From SAR324 cluster bacterium (lineage in GTDB: Bacteria > SAR324 > NAC60-12), in assembly GCA_014382365.1 (NCBI GenBank), contig JACNJW010000040.1:15589-79588 (forward strand): a DNA stretch of 64,000 nucleotides, written 5' to 3'. The position numbers and the translations under genes were made by a program. Of this stretch, positions 1 to 49,379 are shown in pieces. The stretch's first letter is position 1, and each line of letters starts with the position of its first letter. The notes beneath the pieces are model-generated. The model saw only the letters and a list, made by a program, of their open reading frames with translations. It was not told the origin of the DNA and made no database searches.

Positions 1-211
1 GTATATTTCCTTCAAACCATGTCTCAGCAATTTCCTCCTGTAGCCATGGATGAAGCTTCCGTTCAACATTTGCAGTAAACACATAACGTACTGCAGTAGT
101 TTGCAGGCTCAGTGGTTTTTCTTCAGCAGCAATTCCAGCAGGCAATAATATTATTGTTATGCATGCATGCAAAAAAAGCACATTCAAAATTTTTGTGATT
201 AAATTAGTCAT
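1..211 (-). CDS. Partial CDS (N-terminal ~70 aa; the gene continues beyond the window start) encoding a secreted hypothetical protein. Translation is MTNLITKILNVLFLHACITIILLPAGIAAEE..., a signal-peptide-like N-terminus. It is the last visible member of the minus-strand array downstream of the 722-aa OMP gene.
   Basis: Manual reverse-complement translation of 1-211 gives an ATG at 209-211 (minus) and an open frame to the window edge with no stops. The start is 6 nt downstream of the upstream gene's stop, and the N-terminus is hydrophobic. The ORF track omits it because it is truncated. Confidence 0.4.
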   Translation of the reverse strand, partial: MTNLITKILNVLFLHACITIILLPAGIAAEEKPLSLQTTAVRYVFTANVERKLHPWLQEEIAETWFEGNI

Positions 212-23300: not shown

Positions 23301-26300
23301 TGCTCCTCCATCTTCTAATATTAATCCGGCACTACCTACATCCAGTAAGCTACCGTTTTTGAATGTTGGAGATTTTTGAAATGTAAGATTTCCATTAGAG
23401 TAACCAAAATATGCAGCGTCAAATTGTGATGCTTTTGAAACCGTAAGGTTCATATCACTGATAGTTAAAAAGCCGCCGCTGGTTCCACCAGACTGCCAAA
23501 ATATTAATTCGCCAATTATACTTGTGCCGGAATCTGTACGTGAAATATCTGCTGAAGTGTTTATTTGAAGTGTTGTGTCTGCGTCCGTTGTGAAACCGTC
23601 CAAACTGTGAGTTCCAGCAAGTACAAGCTTTCCGCCTGAAAGATCAAGAGTATTGGCTGCCAGGCTGATATTTGCACCACTGTTTAAATTCAACATACCT
23701 GCAACGGAAAAATCTCCTATTAGATTAAATCCAGCTGAGTTTCCGACTTCAAGTTCTCCATTCGCTCCTACATTACCCCCGGAAAGCACCAATGTTCCGC
23801 CTTTGACTTCTATTTTACTTTGAGTTAAAGCCAGACTTCCAAATGAAACAATACTGGTTGAAATACCGTTTAGAACTAAATCGAAGCCTTTTGGATCAAA
23901 AGTATCAAAACCTACAGCAGAATCGAGTATGAGACTTACATCGCTCTGTAACTCTAAAGCTGTACCGCTTAGTGTTAAGGTACCTCCGCTTTTAGTAAAA
24001 TTATCTGCTACTGCCAGCGTACTGTCCTGTATTACTAATGTTCCTCCATTGACAGCACCACCTTTTTCAAAAGTTATTTTGCCTCCACTTGAAGTCAAAG
24101 TTGTTCCGGATGTGAGATCTGCAATCCCTCCAGTGAAAGTCAGATCTGCCAGGTCCGTTGCCATTGTTCCTGCTGGAGTACCTGTGTTTGTTCCACTATT
24201 ACTTGAAGCACTGAGGTCAAGTGTCAAATCTGTTGTTTCTGAGGCAAGTGTAAAAGTGAAACCTTCTAAATTCAACTCGCCTAAAATGAAACCCTGACTG
24301 CGATTCACTGTTGTATCTTCACCAAGTTTGAATGTTGTCTGGTTATTGGTCAGTACATTATCTAGAGTTACGTTGCCGCCAAGTTTCAGCGTGCCTCCGG
24401 AGAGATCAAGATTGGACCCGAGGTTCCAGCTTGTGGTACTGTTTGTTTTGAGGGTTCCGGAAACCGCATAGTCAGTTCCAATCTTCAATTCAGCACCCGC
24501 CGCATTGATTTCTCCAGCATTGGTTCCGCCCTGCTGAAATTCGAGCTTTCCCCCTGTGCCGGTAATGACACTTGCATCAATAGACGCTCCGGTTGAAATA
24601 TCCGCCCTGCCAACAAAAACAAGATCGGCACCCTGAGTGCTTAGTGTACCGGATGCAAGTGTAAAAGCATTTCCGAGTGTAAGGTCAGAGGTTACGGAGG
24701 CTAGTTTAAAATTAAAACCATTGGTATCTAAAGTTGCTGCTTCAACTGCCACCGTGCTTGCAAGCTCTGCATTGGCAGTCAGTGAAAGATTGGTATTTGT
24801 ACTTGTCCAAGAATCCGCAACATTTAAATTTCCACCAAGTTGAATCGTTGTTCCGGAAGTGCTGAAAGTTGCTCCGCTGACTGCAGTAGCACCGCCGGGC
24901 AGACTTAAGGTTCCGCCTTCGATATTAATTATTCCGGTAGTATCTGCGCTCAGACTTGAGGCAGAAAGAGTTCCGCCACTGGATGAAAGCGTTCCGGAGC
25001 TCACTGTAATTCCACCGTTGAGTGACAAATCAGCCGCGCCGCTTATAATCTGTTCTGTGGCTGCGTCAAGTGTCACTGCCTGCGAAACACTCAGTCCCGC
25101 CATTGCGTCATCCAGCGTCAAGGCAAATTCTTCCAGTTCAAGTGTGCCGATTGACAAGGTGTCGCTGTCATTGAGCGTCGTATCTCCTGACAAACGAAGT
25201 ATGCTTGTATTATCCGGAGTCACTCCGCTTAAATCCTGTGTACCCTCAATCTCCAGATTACTGCCTGATAATGTCAACGCGTTTGAGTTTGTAGTAAAAG
25301 TTGTGTTCTTGGTCTTCAGTGTTGAAGAGGAAATTGTCAACGGACTTTGCAGAACCAACGTTGACTCAGGAAGTGAGAGAGTTGAACCTTCAGCAAGACT
25401 GCCTCCGGAGTTGAGGGTGATTGTGCCTCCGCTTGAATTGAGTTTCGCAAGATTGCTCAAGTTCAACGCTCCGGCAAGTGACAAACTTCCTGCACCGGTT
25501 TCCAAAGTGATGCCGGACAAACTAAGCGTTGTATTAGCGTCAGTTAAGTTCAGCTGAGTTGTTGCTGAACCAAGAGTCAGTACCTGACCCTCCAAATTAA
25601 CACTACCGAAAGAAACAGCATTACTCGATGAAAGCGTGGTTGCAGACTGCAGTTTCAGAATTGAAGTATTACTGCTGCTGAATGTTCCGGCGTTCAGATC
25701 AAGAGTCTGGCTGACACTCAAGGTACTGTCTGTTACATCAAGTATTCCTGCTTCGCCCAGAGTCAGTCCGCCTGCAAATGAAAGCGTTCCGCCTGTGGAA
25801 GTAATTGAGCCTGAATCAAGTTGCAAAGCGCTGGAAAGCGTCAGATTAGCAGATTTGGTTTCAATTGCTGAGCCGGTCGCAGTCATTGCCAGAGGGTTCG
25901 GCAGAGTCAGGCCTGCACTGTCTTCTGCAAGTGTAAGTTTGTTTCCACTTAATTCCAGTGTACCGAAACTCAGTGGGGTATTGCTCGTTACCTCTGTATC
26001 ACCACTTAATTTAAAAGTTGTATTTGTGCCGGTTGTAAAATCATTTAAGTTGATTGAACCCCCGCTAGACTCAAGGGTTCCGGAACTAAGATCAAGCGTA
26101 CCCTGCCAACCACTCCAGTTCGAACCGGAGTTTGCCGTTAAAGTTCCTGTTATGTTTAAGGCTCCTCCAAGTTTAAGCTCAGAGTCGCTCATGTCTAACT
26201 TACCGGTGGCTCCGACAGTTCCACCTTCGATCAGATTCAGAATACCGCCGCCCTGCACAAGCTCTCCATTCAGCGTCAAGGCTCCACTCAGTTGAACTGA

Positions 26301-29300
26301 ACCATTGTCTGAAGTAAGTAAACCTCCACTTTCGATTATTAAGGAATTGTTCAGTGAAGTATCTATTTGGCCCAAATTCAACGAGTCACCATTGTCTATA
26401 TTTAATGTTGAATTGAACATCACTTCTGTTACATTACTTCCCAGTGTTAAGGCATTTCCGTTCAGGTCCAAGGTGGTGAAATCAAGACGCCCATTACTTG
26501 AGAGGGTTGTATCTCCATTCAATACTACAGAACTATTATTCAAACCATACCAACTGTCAGCCAGAGAAACTGTACCCTTTGGTTTAAAAACTGAATTCTC
26601 TAAATACAAATTACCATTGCTGAAAGTTAGTCCATCCTGCAAAATCAACTCACCGTCAAGCACTCGAATGGAAGCATTATCTGCTGAAACAGTTTTTTGT
26701 AATGTGAGCGTACCTTTATTGAAATTGATATTTCCTTGTTCGATTTGGACATCTCCGACAATGTTGAGGCTCATATTATCAACCTCTAAATAAGTACCAT
26801 TATTGCTGGAGTTGTCGTTTTCATATTGTACAGAGAGCATTTCCAGATTTCCGATGGTGTTACTACCGTAGTCGGTCCTAAAAATATGTCCGTAAGAATT
26901 AATTTGGAGCGTAGTTGCTGAAGAGGTGGTGATGCCATCCAGATTATGTTTGCTGCTCAATTCCAGACGACCGCCGGAAAGGTCTATTAGATTATCCGAA
27001 GGAGTAACATTTGCATCATGATCCAGAACCAAAGTTCCAGCAACCGCCACATTGCCCTGCAAATTCAGATTGCCGTTCCAGCCAATTTTAATTTTTCCGT
27101 TTTGGGTGACATTTCCTCCCGAAAGATTGAGTGCACCGTTTTGTATTTCTACTGTTCCATCATCAAGCGTCAAATTTCCGTTGAAACTCACATCTCCCTG
27201 ATAACTATGGATGGTCGCATTATCTTTCAGTGTTACATCACCGGAGAGAGTTAGATTTGCATCGTCAGTTTGGATACCTATGTAATGAGAGTTATTGTCC
27301 AGGTGTGTCTCAGTTAGAATATCGTTTTGATACTCATACCATTTAACAAAACCACTCGACAAAGCGGCAGAACTAGGTTGAAGCAAAATGTCTCCACCCA
27401 GAGTTAGAGTGGATGCATTATCATGCATCAGCAATCCCCAACCGTTAGGTTCATAGCTGTCAAATGTGACTGCAGATCCCGGCTCAAAAATAGTATTAGC
27501 ATTTAATCTAAGTGTGCTGGCAGAGGTAGTAAACGTACCGCCATCGTAATTCCCAAACGGTCCACCAAGTTCTAAAATACTGTTGCTCAAATCCAATTCA
27601 CTGTTTGCCCCTAAACCTCCACCTTTTTCCAGCTTAAGAGTTCCCCCTCCCATCTCCAGTTTGCCGTGTTCAAGGTAGAAAGATCGTGTCATAGTTACGT
27701 CAACCCCTTGAGCAATCAAAGCACCCACATTACTATTATTGAGAGTACCATTATCACCATAATTTGGAGCCCAAAAGCTACCTGTTGTTAAACTGGTAAT
27801 TGCTGAATTCAAAGTTAAAGTGTTGCCTTTCGCGCTTATTCCTTTAAACAAAAGGACACCGGTTTTTGTGATACCTGCGTCGCCAACCAAACCTAAGTAT
27901 GTCTCACTGTCTGTAACCACATCTGTAAAATCAAATTCCGGCCCTCCTCCAAGATCAATACCGTCTGCTAGTGTTAAAGTGTTACCATTGGTTTTCAAAA
28001 GAGAAGAGGCTCCTGTAAATTCCATCCATGAGACTGTGAGATTTGTCCTTAAATCTAAGGTTGTGTTTTCCAGCAACATTCCTGTTTCATTATCCGCGAA
28101 AGTAGTCCCTGCTGATCCTGCTTCATAAGTTACAGTTCCACCACTGGACATTATTCCTCCTGCCAGCACATTGACTGGACCATTCAGAGTCAAATCTGCA
28201 AGCCCTGTATCAAGTCCATTCTCTCCGGGATAATTAATGGTGAGTCCTTCATTAATAGTCAAATCAGTAGTTTCCGAACCCAGCTTCAACCAATGCTGGC
28301 CCAGCTCGACAGTCTTTAGTGATATTGGATTAGCACTGCTGAGTGTTGTATCAGCAGTTAGTTTAATTGTGCTTTTGTCGTCAAAAGCCATTCCGTCAAG
28401 GGACAGCGTTCCGCTCGTCTCCAAAACCCCTCCGGATGCCGCAGTTCCACCAGAAAAATCAAGAATATTGTTGTTTAGTGTAATTGTCGAAGTGTCTTTC
28501 AATTTCAAAGTTCCGGCAACACTTAAACCTGCATTCAGCACCAAGGAACCACTACTGATTTCCAGCTTGGCATCCGAAGCAATTGTGCTGACATTTCCCA
28601 AAGAAATACTACCGTCATCTACTTCAATTTCTCCTGCTGACAATGTTAAGCCACCGGATAAAGTCAGATCCGCGCTACCGACTTTGATTTTTTCGTTTTC
28701 ATTACTCAGGCTTAAAATATTACTTATAGTTAAATCAGTTGATGCCGATCCCAAAGTCAAATCATTTCCATTCAAGGCCAGTGATTGAAAACTAAGCGGA
28801 CTGTAACTAAATATACTAACATCATTAAGGAGTTTAAATTCTGTAGTCGATGAGGCCATGTTGCCGCTCAGTATATTGCTCAGATGACTGCTGAGATTTA
28901 CTTTTGAATCCGAGAGATCCATATTTCCATCTTCCAGCGTTACTCCTCCTGAAAGCGTCAGTTCAACATTTTGCAGACTTACTGTTCCTTGATTGTGCAG
29001 CAAACCGCCGACTGTAACTTGCGGGTTATCCGGAAAGTCATCATCGAGATTTTTCAATGCAACATCCGCTCTCGAATCCAGATAGAGATGCTTAACTTCA
29101 GTCTCAGTCAGTGCACGGTTATATAGGCGAAATTCGTCCAGGTTTCCACCAAAATAATTACAAAAGCATTCACCCTGTTCACCAATGTAAAGGGGTGCTG
29201 ACGTTCCACCGTTATCTATGGCAGTGATATTACTATAGTAGGGACCGTCTTCAACTCCATTAAGATAAAAATAAATGCGCAACTGTTCGCCGATATCCTC

Positions 29301-30925: not shown

Positions 30926-32608
30926 TTATTCAACCACAGAGTTTTGTAATGAACCAGTCCATTGCATCAAGTTTGAAGACAGATTATCTCCAACTGAAAC
31001 GTTGTCTGACCTCACAATTGAATTATTTTCAACCTGAATAAAAAATACTGCCTGCGGATTATTTGCTTCAGTGGTTGCAGGATTACTGTCATTTTTAAAA
31101 TTATAAGGACCATAAGTTATATTGTCGGTTATTCCAGGACCAGTCAAAACTAGTTTAAAATTCTGTACATCTGTCTCGCTGACATCTTCTACATAAACCA
31201 GATAAGTTCCATTGCCGACTTTTTGACTGTCTGTAGCCCAGACTTGAACCTCAGTATCAGAGGAACTGCTGCCGTCCTGCAACTGAACTACATCTCCAGT
31301 TTCAGAATATTTTTTGTTGGCTGCATTACTGTAAACCCAGTAACGCGAACCCCTGGTAGTATTATCAAAACTTCCATTTGTAGTTTCTTCATTGTATGTC
31401 CAATCCGGAAAATAGTATGAGTGCAGATCCGGATCCAGTCCATCTGTCCAACTGAGTGTAAAACACATGGTACTGTTGTCAACACAGGCATCATAGTTAA
31501 CTGTGCCAATTGTCTGTGTTTTTGAAACTTCATTAACCGTAAGAATCACTTGAAGTTCATTTGAACCGTGAACTAAAGGCAGGGATGAGGCTGTTGTAAA
31601 TTGAGTTGTGTAAGTCACATTATCCGAACCTTCAGTATTAGACCAACTGGAAAGAGCAATTGGTGGTGTAACATCTACAAGTGTACTGGCTCCAACCCGT
31701 TTTACCTGCATTAAGGATAATATCTGGGTTACATTGTCTTTTTGGGCAATCGGTACATTTAACACAAGTGTCCCGCTTGCAGTCGCATATGCAGATGTTC
31801 CCACTTGAGAAATGCTCATACTTTCAAAACTCAACCAATCAATATCTACATAATTCGGTGTTAATTTTACATCCAGAGTCTCTGTGGAACTGCTGACCAG
31901 AAACGTCTGATTTAAGGGAATAAATCCCTGCAAATCAACATCATAACTATATGAGTTATAAACAACATTTGAAAACACTATCGACTTACTGGCATTGTCC
32001 TCAGAACTAATCGTGAATGAACTGTTGTCAATGAGAATACCTGCAGTAGAATTAAGCTTGGCAGTACCTGTACTTCCGGGCAGCATTCCGGCACTGCTTG
32101 TGCTGCTGATTTTGAATGTAACAGTTGAATATTTTGTAGTCCAAAATTCAACAGCAACTGTTTTGGAGATAGTTTCCGAATCAATCGTAAAAATACCTGA
32201 TTCACCATATCCTCCAGGTGTAATAGTACCTGCACCCAATTCGTTCAAAGCATAAGTTTCACTAAAAAAGTAGAGGCAGAGTTTAATTTTTGTATCCAGC
32301 GGCACAACAAATTGAGCATCATAAGTATTAATGTCAACCAACGACCTGCTGTATTCAACTCCGGAATTTGCAGTAGTAGACTCACATTGAACTGCCGGTA
32401 TCAAAACTGCTAAAATTGTTTTGGCATCGCTGCTGGTCAAACTTTCTGCATACTGCGAACGACTCATTTTTCTATCTGATACGTCATCCATCCGAATCTG
32501 CAACGAAGCATAGCCGTTCGTCTCTGTTTCTACTTCTGCACAGGACACTGCAAGTACAAAAAGCAACAGCATAATAACAAAGATGTTAAGGTTGGTAGTC
32601 CGCATCAT
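30926..32608 (-). CDS. Secreted (probable lipo)protein, 560 aa, hypothetical. The signal peptide plus lipobox-like segment is LAVSC-AEVETE. A C-terminal PPC-like beta-sandwich module is present (DPDLHSYYFPDW...GNGTYLVYVEDVSETDVQNFKLVLTG). It lies immediately upstream of the giant gene.
   Basis: ORF 30926..32608 (-). N-terminal MMRTTNLNIFVIMLLLFVLAVSCAEV fits the Prosite lipobox pattern. The PPC-like motifs were recognised by eye. There is no enzymatic signature. Confidence 0.65.
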   Translation of the reverse strand: MMRTTNLNIFVIMLLLFVLAVSCAEVETETNGYASLQIRMDDVSDRKMSRSQYAESLTSSDAKTILAVLIPAVQCESTTANSGVEYSRSLVDINTYDAQFVVPLDTKIKLCLYFFSETYALNELGAGTITPGGYGESGIFTIDSETISKTVAVEFWTTKYSTVTFKISSTSSAGMLPGSTGTAKLNSTAGILIDNSSFTISSEDNASKSIVFSNVVYNSYSYDVDLQGFIPLNQTFLVSSSTETLDVKLTPNYVDIDWLSFESMSISQVGTSAYATASGTLVLNVPIAQKDNVTQILSLMQVKRVGASTLVDVTPPIALSSWSNTEGSDNVTYTTQFTTASSLPLVHGSNELQVILTVNEVSKTQTIGTVNYDACVDNSTMCFTLSWTDGLDPDLHSYYFPDWTYNEETTNGSFDNTTRGSRYWVYSNAANKKYSETGDVVQLQDGSSSSDTEVQVWATDSQKVGNGTYLVYVEDVSETDVQNFKLVLTGPGITDNITYGPYNFKNDSNPATTEANNPQAVFFIQVENNSIVRSDNVSVGDNLSSNLMQWTGSLQNSVVE

Positions 32609-32713
32609 CTTAACTAGTGCAGGATTGTGGTATCATCATTCACACTCATATTAACTTAAAACTAAACTTGTAAAACTTTTTTCATTTAATTATTGCCATC
32701 AATTGCAGAAATG

Positions 32714-33739
32714 CTAACGGTTCGTGAATGTCATTCCTATAATGATGGTTTTACTTGTTGCGGCATCAATAGCATTTTCCGCATTATTAACCATGGTTTC
32801 TAATTCCTCAAGACGATCCAGTTGTTCCAGTAATTCGCCTTCTGCGTCTGCTTCTTCTTCAAAGACTGGTGCTGCATCAGTATTGTTCAGTCGCTTCTGA
32901 ATAGACCCTACAGGTTCAGACTGACCAAACTGCACCTCTTGAAAACTAGCAGTACCATCTGCTTGGGCAATTTTATCTCTTTCCTCAGGTGAAACAGTAA
33001 CAGGAGCAGACGGACCTGAACCTTCACGCACATGTGAAACCTCGTTTGCAACAACTGCAATTTCATAATCCGGAACTTCTGGAGATGCAAGCGAGACCTC
33101 ACCGGATAAAGCCAGCAAATTTGTTGAATCTCCACTTGTGGCAACCACGAAATCAGTTCCTTTAACTCCTATAATTGCTGTGACTGTCCGGACATTAAAT
33201 CTCTTTTTTTTACGCTTCAGTTTAGTTTTTGTAAGTTTTGCCAGGTTACCCTTTAATTTTTCGCCAAAATTTACATTCGCTTTGTTTTCCACAGCTTGTT
33301 CTTTTTTAGTCTTTTGCTTTACTTCTCCACTGCCTGATGTTTCTGCAAGAGGTTTGACACTGAAGTTTCCTTTGCCTGTCAAAAGGGCCATGTTGTTTTG
33401 TTCTGCAGAAATATCATCCAGTTTAAAAAAACTGTGAGAAAATAATTTTACTGTGTTATCTCTGTTTTTTAAATAAAGTGAAATCTGGGTGCCCTTACCG
33501 GTTTGTAAGCGGTCATTAGCCTGCAGCAGATATGTTTCACCAACTTTTTGTAAAAAAACACTTTTTCCATTACGAATCAACTTAACTCTGCCGGCATGCA
33601 ACTCCAGAGAATTCTGAACTGCACCTGCAGAAGACTGAAATAACAACAGGCAAAAGCAGGTAATTGCCAGCGAAAGTAAAATTATCTGTTTTTTGATTTG
33701 GTAAAACATTTTTATTCTCAACAATTTTAGAACATCCAA
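32714..33739 (-). CDS. FecR-domain periplasmic or membrane-anchored protein, 341 aa. It has an N-terminal signal or TM anchor, a central FecR-like beta domain (...TVTAIIGVKGTDFVVATSGDSTNLLALSGEVSL...), a Lys-rich linker and a C-terminal coiled coil (LEQLDRLEELETMVNNAENAIDAA).
   Basis: ORF 32714..33739 (-). The GxxGTxFxV motif is typical of the FecR/PF04773 fold. It overlaps the upstream 416-aa gene by 13 nt, which implies translational coupling. Confidence 0.65.
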   Translation of the reverse strand: MDVLKLLRIKMFYQIKKQIILLSLAITCFCLLLFQSSAGAVQNSLELHAGRVKLIRNGKSVFLQKVGETYLLQANDRLQTGKGTQISLYLKNRDNTVKLFSHSFFKLDDISAEQNNMALLTGKGNFSVKPLAETSGSGEVKQKTKKEQAVENKANVNFGEKLKGNLAKLTKTKLKRKKKRFNVRTVTAIIGVKGTDFVVATSGDSTNLLALSGEVSLASPEVPDYEIAVVANEVSHVREGSGPSAPVTVSPEERDKIAQADGTASFQEVQFGQSEPVGSIQKRLNNTDAAPVFEEEADAEGELLEQLDRLEELETMVNNAENAIDAATSKTIIIGMTFTNR

Positions 33740-34977
33740 ATATATTGCAGTATCAGTTGATTCTCCTGAAAGGCCCGTGTTGCATCATTTGAAGCCTGTT
33801 TTAATTGTTTCAAGTCTATACCTACTATAGTCGCTTGACTGTATGCATATTTACAATTTAATGTCATTTCATCCTTTTTATTCTGTAAAACAACATTAGT
33901 TGCCGGATCAGCACTTTTATATTGCTGATTATTATTTTGAATATTCAGACCAAAGACCCAGGGAGTCCAGGAATAAGAAGCTCCGGCGTCAATCAGTGTC
34001 GACTGATAATCTTTGCTGGCAGTCTTAAATTTTGTCGTTTGTGAATCCCAGCGTAATTTAAATCTAAAATCCTGCCAGCGCATCTTTGCTCCTAAAGAAA
34101 TCAGAGTTAGTATTCCGTCTTCGGAGTTAGTTTTTACTTTGTTCTGACTGTCTAACTGCAGTTTAAAAGAAGCATCCACGAACTTTGCCCAGCGTTTTTT
34201 TGCTGCAATAAACAGAAATAGAGACTGTACATCTTCCCTGAATTCTCCAGCTTTTTTAGGATCAGTCGGATTAGCATCTTTGACACTAATCACACTCTGT
34301 CCCAAAGCGGAACTAAAATCCATTCCCAGCAGTTGTTTGTTCCTGTATTCTGTACTGAACTGCCGGAACAGGACTTCTTCAGCAACTAAGCTGCGGTTTT
34401 GCTGACGATCAAATTTTAAGACAGCTTTCAACGAAACTGCTGAATCCTTTTGCAGTTGAAAAGCGTATGCTCCAGACACAAGCAAATCATTTTTAGCAGC
34501 ACTGGTTTTTGAGCTGCCTTCCTGCACACGAAGCATGTTACTGCTGTTTGTCTGCCCCAGCATAATGACACCATTCAGCGGTGGAGGTATTTTCTTTTTT
34601 TTCTGCTTTGGTTCATAAGTTACAATAAATTCCTGTTCCTGCTGTCCTGTTTTTGTCTGCACAAAAATAGTAAAACTATTCTTGCCGGGCTTTAAATAAT
34701 ATGGTATTTCATATTCCGCCCAATCTGAATCCTCTCTCACCATTTGCGCAAAGCCGTTAACTTTGACTACCAGCAACGGACTGAAAGTACTGACTTGAAA
34801 ACGAAACCAACCTTCGGCCTGCTCTTCCTTTCCGGGCGAAGTCCGAAAAACAAGTATCTCTTCCGGAAGTTCCAGTCCCTGCTTGTTATCTTCAGTCTGA
34901 GCCTGTACAACACTAATTCCCTGTAGAAAAACTATAATCCAGATTAAGACACAGACCCTCATGCTAAAATGAAACAT
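33727..34977 (-). CDS. Secreted protein, 416 aa, probably an outer-membrane protein. It has a signal peptide, an N-terminal Ig-like beta-sandwich region, a poly-Lys/Pro linker (KQKKKKIPPP) and a ~280-aa C-terminal domain ending ...LILQYIWMF (C-terminal Phe, a beta-barrel-type signature).
   Basis: ORF 33727..34977 (-). The N-terminus is MFHFSMRVCVLIWIIVFLQGISVVQAQ. The terminal aromatic residue and alternating pattern suggest an OMP. The gene is 8 nt downstream of the MotB-like gene. Confidence 0.6.
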   Translation of the reverse strand: MFHFSMRVCVLIWIIVFLQGISVVQAQTEDNKQGLELPEEILVFRTSPGKEEQAEGWFRFQVSTFSPLLVVKVNGFAQMVREDSDWAEYEIPYYLKPGKNSFTIFVQTKTGQQEQEFIVTYEPKQKKKKIPPPLNGVIMLGQTNSSNMLRVQEGSSKTSAAKNDLLVSGAYAFQLQKDSAVSLKAVLKFDRQQNRSLVAEEVLFRQFSTEYRNKQLLGMDFSSALGQSVISVKDANPTDPKKAGEFREDVQSLFLFIAAKKRWAKFVDASFKLQLDSQNKVKTNSEDGILTLISLGAKMRWQDFRFKLRWDSQTTKFKTASKDYQSTLIDAGASYSWTPWVFGLNIQNNNQQYKSADPATNVVLQNKKDEMTLNCKYAYSQATIVGIDLKQLKQASNDATRAFQENQLILQYIWMF

Positions 34978-34985
34978 AGTTTGCC

Positions 34986-36557
34986 TTAGCCTTCATCAGG
35001 ATCCGGAAAAAATTTTCTGGTTCGTTCTTTTTTTACAGGCCTCGTAAATATTAGATCTACCCGCCGATTTGCTTTGCGTGCAGCTTTTAACTCTTTCCCG
35101 CTTTTCCGCTTACCATCCTCAGATAGATATGACTTTTTAGGTCTGGTTTCCGCATAGCCGGAAATTGCAATTCTTTCCGGATTAAAGCCGACTTTTTCCA
35201 TCATTAGTGTGGCGACTACAGTGGCCCGCACCGTACTCAGTTCCCAATTATTCCTGAATTTACTTTTTTTTCTGAGAGGGACATCATCCGTATGTCCATC
35301 CACCCTGATTGCATCTCCTTCCAATTCATAACGATCACGGATTTCACTCAGAAATTGCTGTAATTGCACTTCTACTTCCTGCACAATTGCTGCTCCTCCG
35401 CTGGGAAACAGGAAGCTGGACGGTAGAGAAAGGATACAACGTGATTTACTTGCATTGAGTTCGAAGGAGGCAAAATCTTCATTTTCACGTAAAAAACGAT
35501 TAATTCCACTACAGTCCTTCATTTCCTGTGCACCAATGATGGTATTGACTTGTTTTGAGATACGACCTGTTTCTGCATTTTTAATGGCGAGAGCATCCAT
35601 TTGAACAACCAATGTGCGCGTAGCATATAAAGGAACCTCGTCTTGCAAGACTTCCATTTCCACCGTACCTTTTTCAGTATAGGGATAGATCTTAATCGTA
35701 GCACCATCCATGAAACGAAAGTCTTTTTTCTCCTTGGCAGTTCCAGCAAATTTAATTGGAATTTCTGTTATTACACCACTGACTGGTGAAATTTTAGCAG
35801 TGATATTTGAGATACCTTTGTAAAGATCCCTGCGTGAAACTTCAAAGCTAACGCTGGGAAGCGGTTCATCATCCTGGATAAAAATGCTCCTACTGACAAA
35901 GTTTCCACGCTCCACATCTCCACGTAGTTTTCCGATTTGTACCAGAATTTCTTCCGAATCCTCATAAAGTTCATCGTTGATGATACATAATGGGAAAAAA
36001 GTTTCATATTCTCCCTGTGGAATAACTGCCACTTCTGATCCCAGAATATAATCAAACTCCTGAATTTCAGTCGGATTTGCAGTTAAACCTTCACTTGTGC
36101 AAAGCTCAGCATCAACCGGCCCTCTGCGTGCGCTGCCTGAAAAGAAAAGGGGAATCCTCAAATCTTCTTCTACTTTTTCATTGAGCAGGACCACTACTTT
36201 CAACACTCCTGCAGATTCATCAACCTGACCTTTGGCCATGCTTTCAATCAGAATCTGCGTTTTGTAGAGAGATGTCTGTTTTTTACCAATCAGTGTTTCC
36301 AGTTTTTCTTCAAAATTTTCTTTGTTATCAAAGAAAACTCCCATCATCGATCCTAAACTATTGACAGTATTATCCGGAAGACGGTTTTTCAAAGTATCAA
36401 TTGTTGCAGCATTGACTACAAATCCGGTTTTCAGATCTACTTGTGGTTTGTTAAACAACGACAAATACACAAAAAAACAAAACAGCAATGTAATCAAATC
36501 AGCGAATGTCAACATCCACCTTACTTCATTAGCCTTTTTTTTCTTTCCTCCAAGCAT
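34986..36557 (-). CDS. MotB-like stator protein with an OmpA-type peptidoglycan-binding C-terminal domain, 523 aa. This is about 200 aa longer than canonical MotB because of a long periplasmic linker.
   Basis: The N-terminal TM helix with the conserved MotB Asp reads VRWMLTFADLITLLFCFFVYL (compare MotB ...YADLMTLL...). The C-terminal OmpA/MotB motif is VDGHTDDVPL...NWELSTVRATVV. It is adjacent to the MotA-like gene with an 88-bp gap. Confidence 0.85.
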   Translation of the reverse strand: MLGGKKKKANEVRWMLTFADLITLLFCFFVYLSLFNKPQVDLKTGFVVNAATIDTLKNRLPDNTVNSLGSMMGVFFDNKENFEEKLETLIGKKQTSLYKTQILIESMAKGQVDESAGVLKVVVLLNEKVEEDLRIPLFFSGSARRGPVDAELCTSEGLTANPTEIQEFDYILGSEVAVIPQGEYETFFPLCIINDELYEDSEEILVQIGKLRGDVERGNFVSRSIFIQDDEPLPSVSFEVSRRDLYKGISNITAKISPVSGVITEIPIKFAGTAKEKKDFRFMDGATIKIYPYTEKGTVEMEVLQDEVPLYATRTLVVQMDALAIKNAETGRISKQVNTIIGAQEMKDCSGINRFLRENEDFASFELNASKSRCILSLPSSFLFPSGGAAIVQEVEVQLQQFLSEIRDRYELEGDAIRVDGHTDDVPLRKKSKFRNNWELSTVRATVVATLMMEKVGFNPERIAISGYAETRPKKSYLSEDGKRKSGKELKAARKANRRVDLIFTRPVKKERTRKFFPDPDEG

Positions 36558-36645: not shown

Positions 36646-37512
36646 TCACCCATACTGTTTATCAAATTCGTCCCGCTTGTGAGGGAGAAACATTCGTAGT
36701 TCCTGAAGAATTGTGTATGGTGCCTCACGACGTGCTATGCGATGCACACTTTCACGAATCATTTCCAGCAAAATTAGATTTGATTCTTTGAGTTGCTTCC
36801 GCTTCGAAGCTATCGGCAGTAAAATCATGTTTGAAAAAATTACTCCATAAAGTGTGGTCAACATGGCAATTGACATGGCCTGCATAACTGCACGAATACT
36901 TCCGGTTTCCGCCAGCATCAGTACCAGCCCAACAATCGTTCCAACCATACCAAATGCAGGAGCTGCGGTTGCCATAAAATCCATAATCTCAATTTCTTCA
37001 TCTGCACGCTGCTCATACATGGCCACCTCAGACTTTATGATCTGGTGCAGCGACTCTTCCTCTACTTGCTCTCTGACAATCAGCCCCTCTATCCAGCGTC
37101 GCATAAATGGATTTTGCAGATTGTTGAGATCATCGTTGGTGATTCGCTTTCCACTATAGCGTTTTTCTGCGATTAGCTTGGATTGATCATATATTTCCTG
37201 AGTTGCTTCTTCAGCAATATCTGAAGAAAACACTTTAGGGATGCTGCCAAAACTTCGTAAAGCCTTTCGGTAGGGAAAGGCAATGAAAGTTGCAGAAACA
37301 GTTCCGCCCAACACGATGAAGGTAGATTTCAGGTCAAAAAATCTTAAGATTTGAATTAAATATTTGTTATATGAATCCGCTTCTCCGGAACTCTCCAGCC
37401 AAAGTGCCAGATTAGAAAATTCTGCCGGCCACAGAATTCCAGAAAGAATAAAAATTGCTCCTGATAAAAAACCGAGTGATGTTCCTAATTTATCTGCACT
37501 TGTTTGTTTCAT
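36646..37512 (-). CDS. MotA/PomA-like proton-channel stator subunit (MotA/TolQ/ExbB superfamily; closest in pattern to flagellar MotA/PomA), 288 aa.
   Basis: There are four predicted TM helices. The TM3 signature MATAAPAFGMVGTIVGLVLML closely matches PomA/MotA ...AAPAMGMIGTLVGLV.... TM4 reads SIAMLTTLYGVIFSNMILLPI, and the MotA-like cytoplasmic tail is ...MIRESVHRIARREAPY.... Its stop overlaps the start of the upstream 543-aa gene by 4 nt (ATGA-type coupling). Confidence 0.85.
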   Translation of the reverse strand: MKQTSADKLGTSLGFLSGAIFILSGILWPAEFSNLALWLESSGEADSYNKYLIQILRFFDLKSTFIVLGGTVSATFIAFPYRKALRSFGSIPKVFSSDIAEEATQEIYDQSKLIAEKRYSGKRITNDDLNNLQNPFMRRWIEGLIVREQVEEESLHQIIKSEVAMYEQRADEEIEIMDFMATAAPAFGMVGTIVGLVLMLAETGSIRAVMQAMSIAMLTTLYGVIFSNMILLPIASKRKQLKESNLILLEMIRESVHRIARREAPYTILQELRMFLPHKRDEFDKQYG

Positions 37513-39140
37513 GAATCCTTTTTATTCCAAATTTTAGCCAGTTCCTGATGCACATGACGCATAAAAACGTTGCGGTGCAGATCTCGGAGTTGATTTATCC
37601 GCTCCTTATCTGCATCATCTTCTTCACGTTGTTTTTCAAAACCCTGCTGTTGTTCTTGATAATATTGCCGTGTTTCTTCTGTATATTCCTTCATAATTTT
37701 TTCAGTCACCGATGACTCAGCATCGAGTAACAGATAAGGTACTGAGACCCTGGCTCCAGTGCTTAACCGTGAACGCTCAAAACGTTCCATCACTCTGGCT
37801 ACAAGTGCTTCCTCAATCTCTGAACTGCTTTGCAGTTCATCAAAAGACAGACTTCGTTCGCGGATTTGAGACATGGAACTGTCTGCAGTTTTTGCCAGAT
37901 CTGGATTTTTCTTCTTCAGTTCTCCTGTACTGTCAAGTATCATGTTCCATTGTTCAGCACTCACCTGTCCTGAAAGTTCTCCAATTCGGCCTAGTCCGTC
38001 AAAAGAAACCGGTAATTTTTTTGCAGTTTCAGCTAATTCCTCCGCCAGCTTTTCCAGTTCACTTGGCGAAACACTGACATCTTTCATGGCCAGCACAGCC
38101 GCCAGTGCATCCTCTGCAGGAAACTCCTTGAGGATTACAGCCATTTCACCAGGATCCATTTGACTGAAAACTGCAGCCTGTTGAGCTGGTTTTATTTTCT
38201 GCAGCAGATTAACTCGAATTCCTGCAGGCATCCTGCGAACAAAACCGAAATAATCTATTTTGCCTTCATCATCATCTGCCCCATCTTCTTCATCAGGAAG
38301 ATCCAGTTCCTCTTCTTCCTCCTCTGTTTCCGGTGCCATGCTTTCAATAGCAGTTGCAACTTTTCCAAGTGTAGACTGTAAAGGATGTTCTTTTTCCTCT
38401 TTCTCACGAGTACTGCGGGAGACAAAAAAGAAGAGGGCAAGGGTCAACAACAACAGAACTCCAAGTGTGCCAATTATGGCCCATTGAGCAGGTGTAATTG
38501 CTTCAGTACCTTCAGGCACATATTCAGGAATTAACTGCTCCACTCCCAGCATTTCATAACCTGCTGGAAATTCTGCACTTATTGCTGCTGCCTGTTTCAG
38601 CATTTCCTGTGCTGCAACCGGTTCATCAAGATTTAAATTTGCACGTGCACCAACCAGTAAATTTACATATTCAACCAGTTTTGCAGAAAAATCCGGCCGC
38701 TCGATTTGTAGTTTTTCTATAACAACTGACTGTTCAAAACGGTCCTGAGATTTTAATTCAGTAATTTCTGAACGTATCCGCATTTCCACTTGATCTAAAT
38801 TTACTGCATCGTTGACCGTTAAAATTATACTGCGGTAATTGAAGACTACTTTCACGTCATTTTCACTAGTAATAATTTTCACTCCAGGAAGCAGATCACT
38901 GTCTTTTTTTACAGGTGTATTATCCAAAACTGAATGCATTACTACTGAAACGTCAATATATTTTTCAGCTAGAGTTTTACGCAGAATTTTATGAATCCGT
39001 TCACGCATCTCCGGTTCCGGCCGGCTGCGACTTAAAATTTCCGCCTGACAGTAACTAATACTGAGGAAAATGAAAACCAGGCTGCAGCTTATAATGCTTA
39101 GAATTTTTTTGTTCATAATGTGGTATGTGTTCATGGACAA
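37509..39140 (-). CDS. Bitopic inner-membrane protein with a cytoplasmic FliG/MgtE_N-like helical repeat, 543 aa. It has an N-terminal signal or TM1, a ~190-aa periplasmic domain and TM2 (WAIIGTLGVLLLLTLALFFFV) followed by positive charges. The cytoplasmic part starts with an acidic stretch (EEEEEELDLPDEEDGADDDEG). A FliG-like ARM-type segment follows: LQKIKPAQQAAVFSQMDPGEMAVILKEFPAEDALAAVLAMKDVSVSPSELEKLAEELAE. The C-terminus is coiled-coil and charged.
   Basis: ORF 37509..39140 (-); an alternative start at Met9 (39116) is possible. The FliG-like assignment comes from my pattern match to the FliG middle/C-domain repeat (...L..EHPQTIALvLSyLdP.kAAeVLs.LPeELradVayRIAtl.rVSPEvleEVE..LE...). It needs HHpred or structure prediction. 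The gene is translationally coupled to the MotA-like gene. Confidence 0.6.
   Translation of the reverse strand: MSMNTYHIMNKKILSIISCSLVFIFLSISYCQAEILSRSRPEPEMRERIHKILRKTLAEKYIDVSVVMHSVLDNTPVKKDSDLLPGVKIITSENDVKVVFNYRSIILTVNDAVNLDQVEMRIRSEITELKSQDRFEQSVVIEKLQIERPDFSAKLVEYVNLLVGARANLNLDEPVAAQEMLKQAAAISAEFPAGYEMLGVEQLIPEYVPEGTEAITPAQWAIIGTLGVLLLLTLALFFFVSRSTREKEEKEHPLQSTLGKVATAIESMAPETEEEEEELDLPDEEDGADDDEGKIDYFGFVRRMPAGIRVNLLQKIKPAQQAAVFSQMDPGEMAVILKEFPAEDALAAVLAMKDVSVSPSELEKLAEELAETAKKLPVSFDGLGRIGELSGQVSAEQWNMILDSTGELKKKNPDLAKTADSSMSQIRERSLSFDELQSSSEIEEALVARVMERFERSRLSTGARVSVPYLLLDAESSVTEKIMKEYTEETRQYYQEQQQGFEKQREEDDADKERINQLRDLHRNVFMRHVHQELAKIWNKKDS
37990..38250 (-). other. FliG/MgtE_N-like helical repeat segment within the 543-aa protein (approximate coordinates).
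   Basis: Residues about 300-380, with the motif IKPAQQAAVFSQMDPGEMAVILKEFPAEDALAAVLAMKDVSVSPSELEKLAEEL. Confidence 0.5.
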
Positions 39141-39485
39141 GCAATATTTTGGTGGTGAAAATATTTGTTTTCAGTATATTTTCAGCTAATTTAATCTCTC
39201 ATTAACCCTCTTTATTACGCTTTGACGGAAGATTTGTCAAGCATAATTACATGCCATTGTTAGTAAAATTTGTCAGGCAGATCAATTTTTTTACAGATTT
39301 TAATTATATCCCTTTCATCTGCCAACAATAATATTATTTTTTTATTTTCTGTTAGATATTCGTTGCAAATTAAAGACATCTCAGTTAGTCTTGGTCTTTA
39401 GTCATCTTGCATAATTTGCCAATCTGCGTAAAAGATTGTATTCCTCAAATAAAAAATGTCTGGAACAATCTTAAAAGGTACTCAC
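39141..39485. promoter_or_regulatory. AT-rich 345-bp divergent intergenic region. It lies between the minus-strand motor/adhesin array (starting at 39140) and the plus-strand pal-like/tolQ/tolR/lpxB/tldD array. Divergent promoters are likely. It contains a 9-bp direct repeat ATTTGTCAR (39232-39240 and 39268-39276).
   Basis: The position between divergently oriented first genes, the AT richness and a direct repeat seen by eye. No consensus sigma70 boxes were confidently identified. Confidence 0.3.
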
Positions 39486-40685: not shown

Positions 40686-40693
40686 ATACATAA

Positions 40694-41374
40694 ATGGATT
40701 TTTTATCTCTCCCGTTTACTACTGATTTCAGTAGTATTGCCTTTAGTGTTCTTGCAGTGCTTTTTGCCTGTTCTGTGATTGTCTGGATCACGTTGTTCAT
40801 GAAGTTTTTCAGCCTTATCCGGGCAAAGTTTCTTCAGTCACGTGCCCTAAAACTACTGGAAAACACAAAACGTGTTGATGAACTACGCTTGCGGTTCGCA
40901 AAGATGCCCAATAATCCGCTCCAGGAAATGTTCACACTTGGAGATCGGGAACTTAAGAGGTTCCTTAAATCAAATCCTGCATCAGATTATGGCCACCGCC
41001 GGGAATTAATGGACCGACTGGAAAGGATGCTGGAAGCTCGAATTTTGCTGGCAGAGAAAGATCTAAATGCCGGCCAGGCTCTGCTGGCAACCATCGCTGT
41101 CACATCTCCGTTTATTGGTTTATTTGGCACTGTGATTGGTGTAATTAACACTTTCATGAGTATTTCTGAGTTCAATTCAGTTGATCTGTCTGTGATCAGT
41201 CCAGGCATTGCTGAGGCGCTTGTAGCTACTGCGGCCGGTTTGTTTGCGGCAATTCCTGCTACTTTAGGCTACAACCTCTTTCGTGCAACGATCCGGGGAA
41301 TGACTGAGACAATGGATTATTTTGCACTGCAACTTCTGCATCACCTTCAACAGCATTTGCTGCCAAAAAAATGA
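40694..41374 (+). CDS. TolQ/ExbB-family proton channel (MotA/TolQ/ExbB family), 226 aa.
   Basis: It has three TM helices with the signature TIAVTSPFIGLFGTVIGVINTF. It is adjacent to an ExbD/TolR-like gene and a Pal-like gene. Confidence 0.85.
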   Translation: MDFLSLPFTTDFSSIAFSVLAVLFACSVIVWITLFMKFFSLIRAKFLQSRALKLLENTKRVDELRLRFAKMPNNPLQEMFTLGDRELKRFLKSNPASDYGHRRELMDRLERMLEARILLAEKDLNAGQALLATIAVTSPFIGLFGTVIGVINTFMSISEFNSVDLSVISPGIAEALVATAAGLFAAIPATLGYNLFRATIRGMTETMDYFALQLLHHLQQHLLPKK

Positions 41375-47722: not shown

Positions 47723-47754
47723 AATTTTTTACTAAATTAAGATGAATTAATTAA

Positions 47755-48411: not shown

Positions 48412-48425
48412 CTAAATCTTAATAT

Positions 48426-49217: not shown

Positions 49218-49379
49218 CTTAGCTTATCTTAAAATAGTTTAACTTGAAAAGTGCTATTATCCACTTTTCAGCAATAACGGCAAGTTTTTGCTTGCAACAG
49301 TTTTTCAGTAGGAATTAAATGAGGATTCGAGACATCTCCCTGCTCAGAAAGAACAGGGAAATGCTCGCAAAAGGTGATG

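What the first reader, a model, noticed from the sequence alone, without database searches (positions are those of the whole stretch)
30926..34977. Three secreted accessory proteins between the motor genes and the giant gene: a candidate OM barrel, a FecR-domain protein and a PPC-module lipoprotein
All three carry signal peptides and none has a catalytic signature. The 416-aa and 341-aa genes overlap by 13 nt.

FecR-like beta domains are used as periplasmic signalling or bridging modules. PPC-like beta-sandwiches commonly mediate carbohydrate or protein binding. The 416-aa protein ends in ...IWMF, as beta-barrel OMPs do.

With the 693-722-aa OM barrel downstream, the locus encodes two putative OM channels or anchors for one giant substrate. 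That is reminiscent of dedicated export or anchoring modules such as SprF/PorP for SprB, though unrelated in sequence.
Basis: partly seen in the sequence, partly recalled or inferred. Interest (0 to 1): 0.5.

Follow-up and report, generated by a model that had tools for sequence, protein, structure and literature searches.

The report
Envelope trio beside SAR324 motor genes
Three real, conserved, secreted proteins (an outer-membrane barrel, a FecR-domain periplasmic protein and a four-domain lipoprotein) follow flagellar-type motor genes in the uncultured ocean bacterium SAR324, and they track the motor genes rather than the giant surface-protein gene next to them, which suggests an undescribed ion-driven envelope machine.

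Summary
The three ORFs are real genes of a SAR324 MAG, conserved in order in every related locus long enough to show them.

**The three proteins**
- The second protein has a FecR domain (Pfam E 1.2e-8). Its real start is the ATG at 33709 (331 aa), so the reported 13-nt overlap is a longest-ORF artefact.
- The 560-aa protein is a lipoprotein with a conserved lipobox Cys and four beta-sandwich domains. A PPC module is not supported.

**Context**
- Upstream lie a membrane-anchored FliG-like protein, a PomA/MotP-like MotA, and a MotB carrying two inserted Calx-beta domains.
- A divergent lineage keeps these six genes but has other lipoproteins in place of the giant gene.
- Another locus keeps only MotA, MotB and the barrel.

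So the trio belongs with the motor, not specifically with the giant beta-helix-like protein.

**Reading**
- Best reading (about 0.45): these are the periplasmic and outer-membrane parts of a non-flagellar, ion-driven envelope machine acting on surface proteins.
- Main rival: a SAR324-specific flagellar stator scaffold.

The parts
37509..39134 (-). Membrane-anchored FliG-like protein (541 aa from the ATG; 543 aa from the TTG at 39140). It has a cleavable signal peptide, a periplasmic domain of about 190 aa, one TM helix (about residues 223-243), an acidic linker and a cytoplasmic FliG middle/C-like domain. Its stop overlaps the motA start by 4 nt (ATGA).
   Evidence: The sequence is. Pfam gives weak MgtE_N and FliG_M hits, and MgtE_N is above the gathering score in the L018 orthologue. 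A profile of 10 orthologues against PDB returns FliG as five of the six best hits, with 1lkv at E 3.5e-4 over residues 296-435.
36646..37512 (-). MotA/PomA/MotP-type stator A subunit (288 aa).
   Evidence: Pfam MotA_ExbB scores E 3e-18. NCBIfam MotP scores 5e-37 and PomA 8e-34, both below the equivalog cutoffs. The protein aligns over its full length to solved MotA/PomA structures at E 1e-23.
34986..36557 (-). MotB-type stator B subunit (523 aa). It has the plug and TM segment with the channel Asp (TFADLITLL), an insert of about 290 aa holding two Calx-beta-like domains, and a C-terminal OmpA-like peptidoglycan-binding domain.
   Evidence: MotB_plug and OmpA hits are. The alignment to MotB/PomB structures has a gap between residues about 41 and 329. 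Calx-beta is found in 8 of 9 orthologues, best E 1.8e-7, and NCX CBD12 structures match residues 167-287.
33727..34977 (-). 416-aa outer-membrane protein. It has a signal peptide, a periplasmic Ig-like beta-sandwich (about residues 40-121), a Lys/Pro linker and a beta-barrel of about 14 strands (about residues 136-416) ending in YIWMF. Its start lies 8 nt after the motB stop.
32714..33709 (-). 331-aa secreted FecR-domain protein. It has a signal peptide, an N-terminal beta region, a variable Lys-rich insert, the FecR core (about residues 160-215 in 341-aa numbering), and a conserved C-terminal helix plus amphipathic strand (...NAENAIDA.KSKT..L.MTFTNR).
   Evidence: Pfam FecR scores E 1.2e-8. 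NCBIfam gives weak Lsa33 and LipL45 hits.
30926..32608 (-). 560-aa lipoprotein (lipobox LAVSC, Cys23) made of four beta-sandwich domains: D1 33-156, D2 161-249, D3 259-372, D4 381-540.
2301..30740 (-). 9479-aa secreted giant protein. It has a Sec signal peptide, L/S/T/G/N-rich internal repeats over about residues 600-8400 (beta-solenoid-like by composition), one PKD domain (about 8611-8697), and a C-terminal region with a TM-plus-basic segment and a lipobox-like segment.
   Evidence: The ORF is. Pfam finds only PKD. It lies downstream of the trio in the main SAR324 clade only.
218..2296 (-). 692-aa secreted protein starting 4 nt after the giant gene's stop. It has repeated modules with a Y.(L/V)(Y/F)WG motif and a Gly/Tyr-rich C-terminal region of about 215 aa ending in GFGIFF (a possible small OM barrel, untested).
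   Evidence: The sequence is and the gene call and spacing. It has 64 SAR324-type relatives. No Pfam or PDB profile hit was found.
1..211 (-). 5' part of a 154-aa secreted-protein gene that follows the 692-aa gene by 7 nt and runs off the start of the window.
   Evidence: Gene calls on longer contigs are.

Best explanation
The three genes encode the periplasmic and outer-membrane parts of a SAR324-specific, envelope-spanning machine. Its inner-membrane engine is a self-contained rotor-stator pair.

**Shown by homology**
- MotA and MotB are flagellar-type stator subunits with the channel Asp, the plug and a peptidoglycan-binding domain.
- The protein encoded just upstream, translationally coupled to motA, has a cytoplasmic FliG-like domain. 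That domain is tethered by one TM helix to a periplasmic domain of about 190 aa.
- MotB carries two extra Calx-beta domains in the periplasm.
- The 416-aa protein is an OM beta-barrel with a periplasmic Ig-like domain.
- The 331-aa protein is a soluble periplasmic FecR-domain protein.
- The 560-aa protein is a lipoprotein of four beta-sandwich domains.

**Inferred**
- Ion flow through MotA5B2 acts on the FliG-like protein.
- Force or conformational change passes through the periplasm to the barrel in the outer membrane. The path would use the FliG-like protein's periplasmic domain, the lengthened MotB, the FecR protein and the lipoprotein.
- The output acts on surface proteins encoded downstream. 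In the main clade these are the 9479-aa beta-solenoid-like fibre with its 692-aa partner. In the divergent lineage they are other Ser/Thr-rich lipoproteins.
- The action could be energising their deployment, or holding and moving them. This would be analogous to ExbBD-TonB, AglRQS-Glt, GldLM-SprB or SiiAB-SiiE.
For: **Gene order and spacing**
- The genes are tightly spaced on one strand: a 4-nt overlap between the FliG-like gene and motA, 8 nt between motB and the barrel gene, and 17 nt between the barrel gene and the FecR gene.
- No convincing terminators lie between the genes.

**Conservation**
- The FliG-like, MotA, MotB, barrel, FecR and lipoprotein genes keep the same order in the SAR324 loci long enough to show them. 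L018 of the 36-37%-identity lineage has all six, and L017 has five before its contig ends.
- The barrel stays with MotA and MotB even in the three-gene locus L019.

**Component identities**
- MotA aligns over its full length to PomA/MotA structures.
- MotB has the Asp and plug plus a Calx-beta insert.
- The profile of the FliG-like family hits FliG structures.
- The barrel fold is supported.
- The FecR domain is present.
- The lipoprotein fold is supported.

**Context**
- No flagellar genes lie in the 64-kb window or within a further 6-10 kb on either side.
- There is a precedent for a MotAB-like proton channel serving a giant adhesin: SiiAB-SiiE (bioRxiv 10.1101/641415).
Against: - No physical link between any two components has been tested. 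Everything beyond domain identity is inference from gene order.
- There are gaps of 105 nt before the lipoprotein gene and 185 nt before the giant gene, which allow separate transcription.
- The giant gene is absent from two related locus types, so the 'output' is undefined.
- MotA is of the flagellar (PomA/MotP) type.
- SAR324 appears to have flagella. Flagellin spectra are reported in bioRxiv 10.1101/310524, and 'flagellar motility genes in all genomes' in PMC9031357. This could therefore simply be the flagellar stator.
- The N-terminal half of the barrel model has low confidence (pLDDT below 50 for residues 126-218).
Confidence: 0.45

Rival explanations
1. This is a flagellar stator with a lineage-specific scaffold. 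MotA and MotB would be the (Na+- or H+-driven) stator of the SAR324 flagellum. The barrel, FecR protein and lipoprotein would form periplasmic or OM rings that hold it, like the Vibrio T-ring and H-ring (MotX/MotY, FlgT/FlgO/FlgP) or the Campylobacter disks. The giant gene would be an unrelated neighbour.
For: - MotA is closest to MotP/PomA, and MotB closest to MotB/MotD/PomB.
- The barrel travels with MotAB alone in L019.
- SAR324 flagellin peptides have been reported (bioRxiv 10.1101/310524).
- Flagellar genes are reported as scattered in SAR324 bins (PMC4782131), so the lack of flagellar neighbours is not decisive.
Against: - A dedicated FliG-like protein that is membrane-anchored and translationally coupled to motA has no counterpart in known flagellar motors.
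- MotA and MotB score far below the NCBIfam equivalog cutoffs (127 against 394 bits; 103 against 259 bits).
- No flagellar gene lies within about 80 kb of sequence viewed.
- None of the three proteins matches a known flagellar accessory family.
- PMC4782131 notes that in the plume bins only motor-protein genes were recovered in numbers. Those bins include the genome of locus L007.
Confidence: 0.25
2. These are adjacent but independent units. One would be a motor-plus-barrel unit of unknown role. The other would be a separate adhesin operon (FecR protein, lipoprotein, giant protein, 692-aa and 154-aa proteins), in which the FecR protein and the lipoprotein help fold, anchor or display the giant fibre without any energy input from MotAB.
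For: - Gaps of 105 nt and 185 nt precede the lipoprotein and giant genes.
- L019 has MotA, MotB and the barrel only.
- The 692-aa and 154-aa genes are tightly coupled to the giant gene, at 4 and 7 nt.
Against: - The FecR and lipoprotein genes stay with the motor genes in the divergent lineage where the giant gene is missing.
- The FecR gene starts 2-40 nt after the barrel gene in most loci.
Confidence: 0.15
3. The 416-aa barrel and the 692-aa protein would be two dedicated OM export or anchoring channels for the giant protein, analogous to TpsB or SprF/PorP.
For: - The giant protein has a Sec signal and must cross the OM.
- The barrel fold of the 416-aa protein is supported.
- The 692-aa gene is coupled to the giant gene.
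- Both proteins end in an aromatic beta-signal-like motif.
Against: - The barrel occurs without any giant gene.
- There are no POTRA, ShlB, TPS-domain, PorP or T9SS C-terminal-domain signatures.
- The N-terminal domain of the barrel protein is all-beta, whereas POTRA domains contain helices (my knowledge).
- The C-terminal region of the 692-aa protein is only about 215 residues, which suits a small anchor barrel better than a channel for a 1-MDa substrate (inference).
Confidence: 0.1
4. The 416-aa protein is an ordinary diffusion porin that merely sits next to motB.
Against: - The Porin_4 score is below the Pfam gathering score (22.4 against 27).
- The protein has an extra, nearly invariant periplasmic Ig-like domain.
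- The 8-nt spacing to motB and strict co-occurrence with this MotAB type hold in all 13 genome loci.
Confidence: 0.05

Closest known systems
Flagellar rotor-stator pair (MotA5B2 or PomAB acting on FliG)
   Same: - MotA aligns over its full length to solved MotA/PomA structures.
- MotB has the plug, the channel Asp and an OmpA-like peptidoglycan-binding domain.
- The partner protein has a FliG middle/C-like domain.
   Different: - The FliG-like protein has a signal peptide, a periplasmic domain and a TM anchor, and no FliG N-domain.
- MotB has a two-domain Calx-beta insert.
- No flagellar genes are nearby.
- The downstream genes encode an OM barrel, a FecR protein and a lipoprotein.
Salmonella SPI-4 SiiA/SiiB with the T1SS SiiCDF and the giant adhesin SiiE (bioRxiv 10.1101/641415)
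   Same: A MotB-like, peptidoglycan-binding, proton-conducting pair is encoded with a giant repetitive surface protein. How the ion-motive force is used is also unknown there.
   Different: - No ABC transporter, membrane-fusion protein or TolC-like genes are present here.
- The giant protein has an N-terminal Sec signal.
- This MotA is of the flagellar (PomA/MotP) type according to NCBIfam and PDB matches. How close SiiB is to it was not tested here.
- A FliG-like partner, a barrel, a FecR protein and a lipoprotein are present.
Vibrio T-ring/H-ring and related flagellar stator scaffolds (MotX/MotY, FlgT/FlgO/FlgP). This comparison rests on my knowledge.
   Same: A periplasmic protein, an OM protein and a lipoprotein accompany a PomAB-like stator.
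   Different: No sequence match to these families was found. MotY appears only as a weak OmpA-domain hit to MotB. The flagellar context is unproven.
Myxococcus Agl-Glt gliding machinery and Bacteroidetes GldLM/T9SS with SprB and SprF. This comparison rests on my knowledge.
   Same: An ion-driven 5:2-type motor is coupled through periplasmic proteins to OM barrels and lipoproteins. The output is movement or deployment of a large surface adhesin.
   Different: - Those motors are of the TolQR/ExbBD or GldL type, not the flagellar type.
- There is no TonB-like, GldM-like, PorP/SprF or T9SS C-terminal-domain component here.
- The components are unrelated in sequence.
FecR/FecA/ExbBD-TonB signalling, and Leptospira FecR-domain proteins LipL45 and Lsa33
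   Same: The Pfam FecR domain is present. NCBIfam gives weak hits to Lsa33 (7e-6) and LipL45 (6e-5). It is a periplasmic FecR domain encoded beside an OM barrel and a MotA/ExbB-family motor.
   Different: - There is no cytoplasmic anti-sigma domain and no TM helix. The protein is a soluble secreted protein.
- No ECF sigma factor or TonB-dependent transducer is encoded in the operon.
- Scores are far below the LipL45/Lsa33 cutoffs (22-25 bits against 350-420 bits).

Membership tests
Outer-membrane beta-barrel protein (general) | Sec signal peptide and a C-terminal aromatic beta-signal | tested here: met
   The signal peptide reads ...VVQA|QTED. The terminus Y-I-W-M-F is conserved in its W-x-aromatic pattern across all 23 aligned relatives: W414 is invariant and the last residue is F in 22 and Y in 1.
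Outer-membrane beta-barrel protein (general) | Closed antiparallel beta-barrel fold | tested here: met
Pfam Porin_4 (PF13609) | Score above the Pfam gathering threshold | tested here: not met
   The score is 22.4 bits against a cutoff of 27. Some orthologues carry a precomputed PF13609 hit. The resemblance is porin-like, so I do not file the protein as a member.
FecR domain family (PF04773) | Score above the Pfam gathering threshold | tested here: met
   The score is 35.7 bits against a cutoff of 24, E 1.2e-8. The L018 orthologue also scores 1e-8.
FecR-type anti-sigma factor | Cytoplasmic anti-sigma domain plus a TM helix, with an adjacent ECF sigma factor and TonB-dependent transducer | tested here: not met
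   The protein begins with a cleavable signal peptide and has no other hydrophobic segment. No sigma factor or TonB-dependent receptor gene is in the operon.
PPC (bacterial pre-peptidase C-terminal) domain, PF04151 | Pfam match or a PPC-like fold match | tested here: not met
Bacterial lipoprotein | Lipobox with an invariant Cys at the end of a signal peptide | tested here: met
   The lipobox is LAVS-C23. The Cys is invariant and the lipobox is conserved as VSC or VGC in 20 aligned sequences and in all locus orthologues. Sorting to the OM is inferred from the non-Asp residue at +2 (the E. coli rule) and was not tested.
Flagellar stator MotA/MotB (PomAB, MotPS) | MotA_ExbB fold with a long cytoplasmic loop; MotB plug, channel Asp and OmpA-like domain | tested here: met
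   The alignment to PomA/MotA covers residues 55-277. MotB has TFAD(20)LITLL plus the plug and the OmpA domain.
Flagellar stator MotA/MotB (PomAB, MotPS) | NCBIfam equivalog score, and genomic or functional association with a flagellum | tested here: not met
   Best scores are 127 bits against a cutoff of 394 (MotP) and 103 bits against 259 (MotB family). No flagellar genes lie in the window or the viewed flanks. Whole-genome association could not be tested.
FliG | FliG_N, FliG_M and FliG_C domains in a soluble cytoplasmic protein | tested here: not met
   The match to the M and C regions is weak. Pfam FliG_M scores 18 bits against a cutoff of 25, and the profile against 1lkv gives E 3.5e-4. 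There is no FliG_N. The protein has a signal peptide and a TM anchor. It is FliG-like, not FliG.
Zorya anti-phage system | ZorA with a long C-terminal tail, ZorB, and ZorC/D or ZorE effectors | tested here: not met
   PADLOC gives ZorA at E 1e-3 only and ZorB hits confined to the OmpA part. Nothing was found for the other five proteins.
Two-partner secretion, T1SS adhesin or T9SS cargo systems | TpsB POTRA/ShlB plus a TPS domain; or ABC, MFP and TolC plus a C-terminal signal; or a Por_Secre_tail C-terminal domain plus PorP/SprF | tested here: not met
   No such Pfam or NCBIfam hits were found in any operon protein or in the giant protein. The giant protein has an N-terminal Sec signal.

The most novel reading that the evidence does not exclude
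SAR324 carries a self-contained, non-flagellar rotary unit in which flagellar-type MotA5B2 turns or pushes a ring or array of membrane-anchored FliG-like proteins. The motion would be carried across the periplasm to a dedicated outer-membrane barrel by the FliG-like protein's periplasmic domain, the Calx-beta-extended MotB, the FecR protein and the four-domain lipoprotein. It would deploy, tension or move a beta-solenoid surface fibre. Assuming 20-25 residues per 0.48-nm rung over about 7,800 repeat residues, that fibre would be about 150-190 nm long. This would be a new kind of ion-powered adhesion or surface-motility device in one of the most abundant deep-ocean bacterial lineages.
Probability: 0.25. 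Interest if true: 0.85.

Novelty: new variant of a known kind. Interest (0 to 1): 0.6.

Why it matters
- Ion-driven 5:2 motors are known to power flagella, TonB and Tol systems, gliding (Agl, GldLM), Zorya defence and the SiiE adhesin system.
- A flagellar-type MotAB pair with its own membrane-anchored FliG-like partner and a dedicated periplasmic and outer-membrane set would add a new output module. It would also offer a possible intermediate between flagellar and non-flagellar use of the stator-FliG interface.
- SAR324 is abundant in the dark ocean and thought to be particle-associated. A motor-linked 1-MDa surface fibre would bear on how it attaches to or moves on particles.
- If the module instead proves to be a flagellar stator scaffold, it would be a new, non-homologous solution to stator anchoring.

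Tried and rejected
**Searches that found nothing**
- Profile search of the 416-aa family against PDB sequences: no hit. The barrel assignment rests on fold only.
- phmmer of the FliG-like protein alone against PDB: nothing. A 10-sequence profile was needed.
- FecR protein against PDB: nothing meaningful.
- 692-aa protein: 64 homologues, but no Pfam or PDB profile hit. hhalign against the 416-aa family showed no relation.
- NCBIfam on the ends and middle of the giant protein: only a weak partial TafC hit.

**Tests that were uninformative**
- My crude amphipathic-strand count did not separate barrels from beta-sandwiches, so I do not use it as evidence.
- The promoter and terminator scan gave no more sites than shuffled sequence, so it says nothing on operon structure.
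- Literature on SAR324 flagellation is contradictory or vague (PMC9031357, PMC4782131, PMC8364033, PMC10359470, bioRxiv 10.1101/310524). The supplement of PMC4782131 held nothing searchable.

**Technical limits**
- The afdb50 fold library was unavailable.

**Readings rejected**
- Zorya.
- TPS, T1SS and T9SS readings.
- An anti-sigma FecR.
- A PPC domain.
- The 13-nt gene overlap.

Full report
**Source and layout**

The window is from a SAR324 cluster bacterium MAG. The 416-aa protein is encoded identically on contigs of GCA_016784405.1 and on several marine metagenome assemblies.

Nine genes follow one another on the minus strand:

| Gene | Coordinates |
|---|---|
| 541/543-aa protein | 37509-39134/39140 |
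| MotA | 36646-37512 |
| MotB | 34986-36557 |
| 416-aa protein | 33727-34977 |
| FecR-domain protein | 32714-33709/33739 |
| 560-aa protein | 30926-32608 |
| 9479-aa protein | 2301-30740 |
| 692-aa protein | 218-2296 |
| 154-aa gene (5' part) | 1-211 |

The spacings are:
- a 4-nt overlap between the first gene and motA
- 88 nt between motA and motB
- 8 nt between motB and the 416-aa gene
- 17 nt between the 416-aa gene and the FecR gene
- 105 nt between the FecR gene and the 560-aa gene
- 185 nt between the 560-aa gene and the giant gene
- 4 nt and 7 nt after the giant gene

The rest of the window and the viewed flanks hold housekeeping genes and a divergent OmpA-ExbB-ExbD-LpxB cluster. No flagellar genes are present.

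**Checking the observation**

- The 416-aa family has 81 members at 46-100% identity.
- The 560-aa family gives 834 hits.
- Orthologues of all three occur in GTDB species genomes.
- Each has a signal peptide by inspection. The 560-aa protein has a lipobox whose Cys is invariant.
- No catalytic family is hit.

Two details fail.

The first is the 13-nt overlap, which depends on a TTG at 33739 lying inside the last codons of the barrel gene.
- Gene callers on six assemblies use the ATG at 33709, giving 331 aa.
- That start gives a normal signal peptide.
- In orthologues the FecR gene starts 2 to about 280 nt after the barrel gene, and homology begins at the signal peptide.

The second is the PPC label.
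- There is no Pfam hit at E <= 0.1.

**The 416-aa protein**

I made an AlphaFold model from 23 sequences. Its mean pLDDT is 59.6, but residues 250-416 reach 80-91.
- The model shows an all-beta domain at residues 43-121.
- This is followed by about 14 long antiparallel strands.
- The C-terminus is W-x-aromatic in all 23 aligned relatives.
- Pfam Porin_4 is hit below threshold.

I accept an OM barrel with a periplasmic N-terminal Ig-like domain. Strand number and barrel closure are not settled, because residues 126-218 are modelled poorly.

**The FecR-domain protein**

- Pfam FecR scores above threshold.
- NCBIfam gives only distant hits to the Leptospira FecR-domain proteins Lsa33 and LipL45.
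- The protein is soluble and secreted. It has no anti-sigma domain and no TM helix, and no ECF sigma factor or TonB-dependent transducer is encoded nearby.
- The orthologue alignment shows a conserved N-terminal beta region, a variable Lys-rich insert, the FecR core, and a conserved C-terminal helix plus amphipathic strand.

**The 560-aa protein**

- The AlphaFold model (27-row alignment, mean pLDDT 75.3) has four beta-sandwich domains.
- An exhaustive HMMER search of 1.84 billion representatives found only 63 relatives, of which four clusters are full-length.
- The C-terminal half recurs at the end of two proteins of 2000-2400 aa.
- The N-terminal domain recurs in Ig/LamG-type proteins of 300-690 aa.

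**The neighbours**

- MotA aligns over its full length to solved MotA/PomA structures and is closest to MotP/PomA, though it scores far below the equivalog cutoffs.
- MotB has the plug, the channel Asp and an OmpA-like domain. It also has an insert of about 290 aa, which in 8 of 9 orthologues matches Calx-beta and aligns to the tandem CBD12 of Na/Ca exchangers.
- The first gene's product has a cleavable signal peptide, a periplasmic domain of about 190 aa, one TM helix and a cytoplasmic region.
- A profile of that family hits FliG middle/C-domain structures as five of its six best PDB matches (E 3.5e-4). MgtE_N passes Pfam's threshold in the L018 orthologue.
- PADLOC shows only generic MotA/MotB-domain similarity to Zorya.

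**The giant protein**

- It has a Sec signal.
- Residues 600-8400 are L/S/T/G/N-rich internal repeats.
- It has a single PKD domain.
- No T1SS, T5SS or T9SS signature was found.

**Synteny, the key result**

A scan of 185,579 species genomes with the barrel family found 13 loci, all SAR324-type MAGs.
- Every locus long enough shows FliG-like, MotA, MotB, barrel, FecR, lipoprotein and then the start of a giant gene.
- Two loci of a divergent lineage, L017 and L018, have 56% GC and a barrel 36-37% identical. L018 keeps the six genes but continues with 589-aa and 1415-aa lipoproteins, not a giant gene. L017 keeps five of the six before its contig ends.
- L019 keeps only MotA, the MotB with its insert, and a 473-aa barrel. 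These sit between an ABC transporter and NnrS.

The three proteins therefore belong with the motor genes, and the barrel belongs most tightly with MotAB. The giant gene is a clade-specific downstream neighbour.

**Interpretation**

I think the trio forms the periplasmic and OM end of an ion-driven, envelope-spanning machine whose engine is MotAB plus its own membrane-anchored FliG-like partner. The domain identities are shown. The contacts, the direction of energy flow and the target are inferred from gene order and from analogy with ExbBD-TonB, Agl-Glt, GldLM-SprB and SiiAB-SiiE (bioRxiv 10.1101/641415).

The main rival is that this is simply the SAR324 flagellar stator with a lineage-specific scaffold.
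- SAR324 flagellin peptides have been reported (bioRxiv 10.1101/310524).
- One survey reports flagellar motility genes in all SAR324 genomes (PMC9031357).
- Another notes that plume bins, including the genome of L007, yielded only motor-protein genes in numbers (PMC4782131).

I could not scan whole genomes, so this stays open.

**Verdict**

The locus is an uncharacterised variant of the ion-driven motor theme. It merits follow-up, starting with a genome census and complex predictions.

Noticed in passing
window 2301-2810 (last ~170 codons of the giant ORF): The C-terminus has an odd architecture. A hydrophobic segment followed by basic residues (TMLLLVVLLLTSVSLMVYRRQ) looks like a C-terminal sorting signal but is not at the end. 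About 25 residues later comes a lipobox-like segment (IAALITLVVAC), then about 90 more residues that repeat a W..W...KGY...G.G(F/Y)W motif also seen just upstream. This could be an in-frame fusion with a small lipoprotein gene, or an internal start.
   Followed up: no
window 34986-36557 (MotB), residues ~41-329: A flagellar-type MotB carries two Calx-beta-like domains between the plug and the peptidoglycan-binding domain. The insert is conserved in all nine orthologues examined.
   Followed up: partly
L019 7272-11137: This is a minimal three-gene version of the module (MotA, the MotB with its insert, and a 473-aa barrel) in a 55% GC MAG. It has no FliG-like, FecR, lipoprotein or giant genes and sits between an ABC transporter and NnrS.
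   Followed up: partly
L018 11634-17794: In the divergent lineage the six-gene module is followed by two Ser/Thr-rich lipoproteins (589 aa and 1415 aa). They have no Pfam domains and no similarity to the giant protein.
   Followed up: partly
window 39456-41793 (+ strand): A divergently transcribed cluster encodes an OmpA-domain protein (409 aa), ExbB/TolQ and ExbD/TolR. It lies directly upstream of the motor operon and is followed by lpxB and tldD. The ExbB and LpxB genes, with at least part of the OmpA-domain gene, keep this position in the main-clade loci long enough to show it (ExbD was not queried). No match to them was found in L017-L019.
   Followed up: no
window 1-211 and L020 8086-8550: A 154-aa secreted protein gene with no known domain follows the 692-aa gene by 7 nt. 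The operon therefore extends past the start of the window.
   Followed up: partly
window 218-2296 (692-aa protein): At least three N-terminal stretches share a Y.(L/V)(Y/F)WG motif. A distant relative is annotated as a fibronectin type III protein (P0325). Weak relatives of 900-1150 aa share about half of the protein.
   Followed up: partly
window 44608-50948 (- strand): There are three ORFs of about 520 aa (44608-46179, 46166-47722, 49380-50948). Two have no Pfam hit and one has weak DUF2225 and TerB hits. An enoyl-CoA hydratase gene lies among them.
   Followed up: no
window 32714-33709, residues ~120-170 of the FecR protein: A Lys-rich, poorly conserved insert splits the FecR beta region. 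It is about 30 residues longer in the L017/L018 lineage.
   Followed up: no
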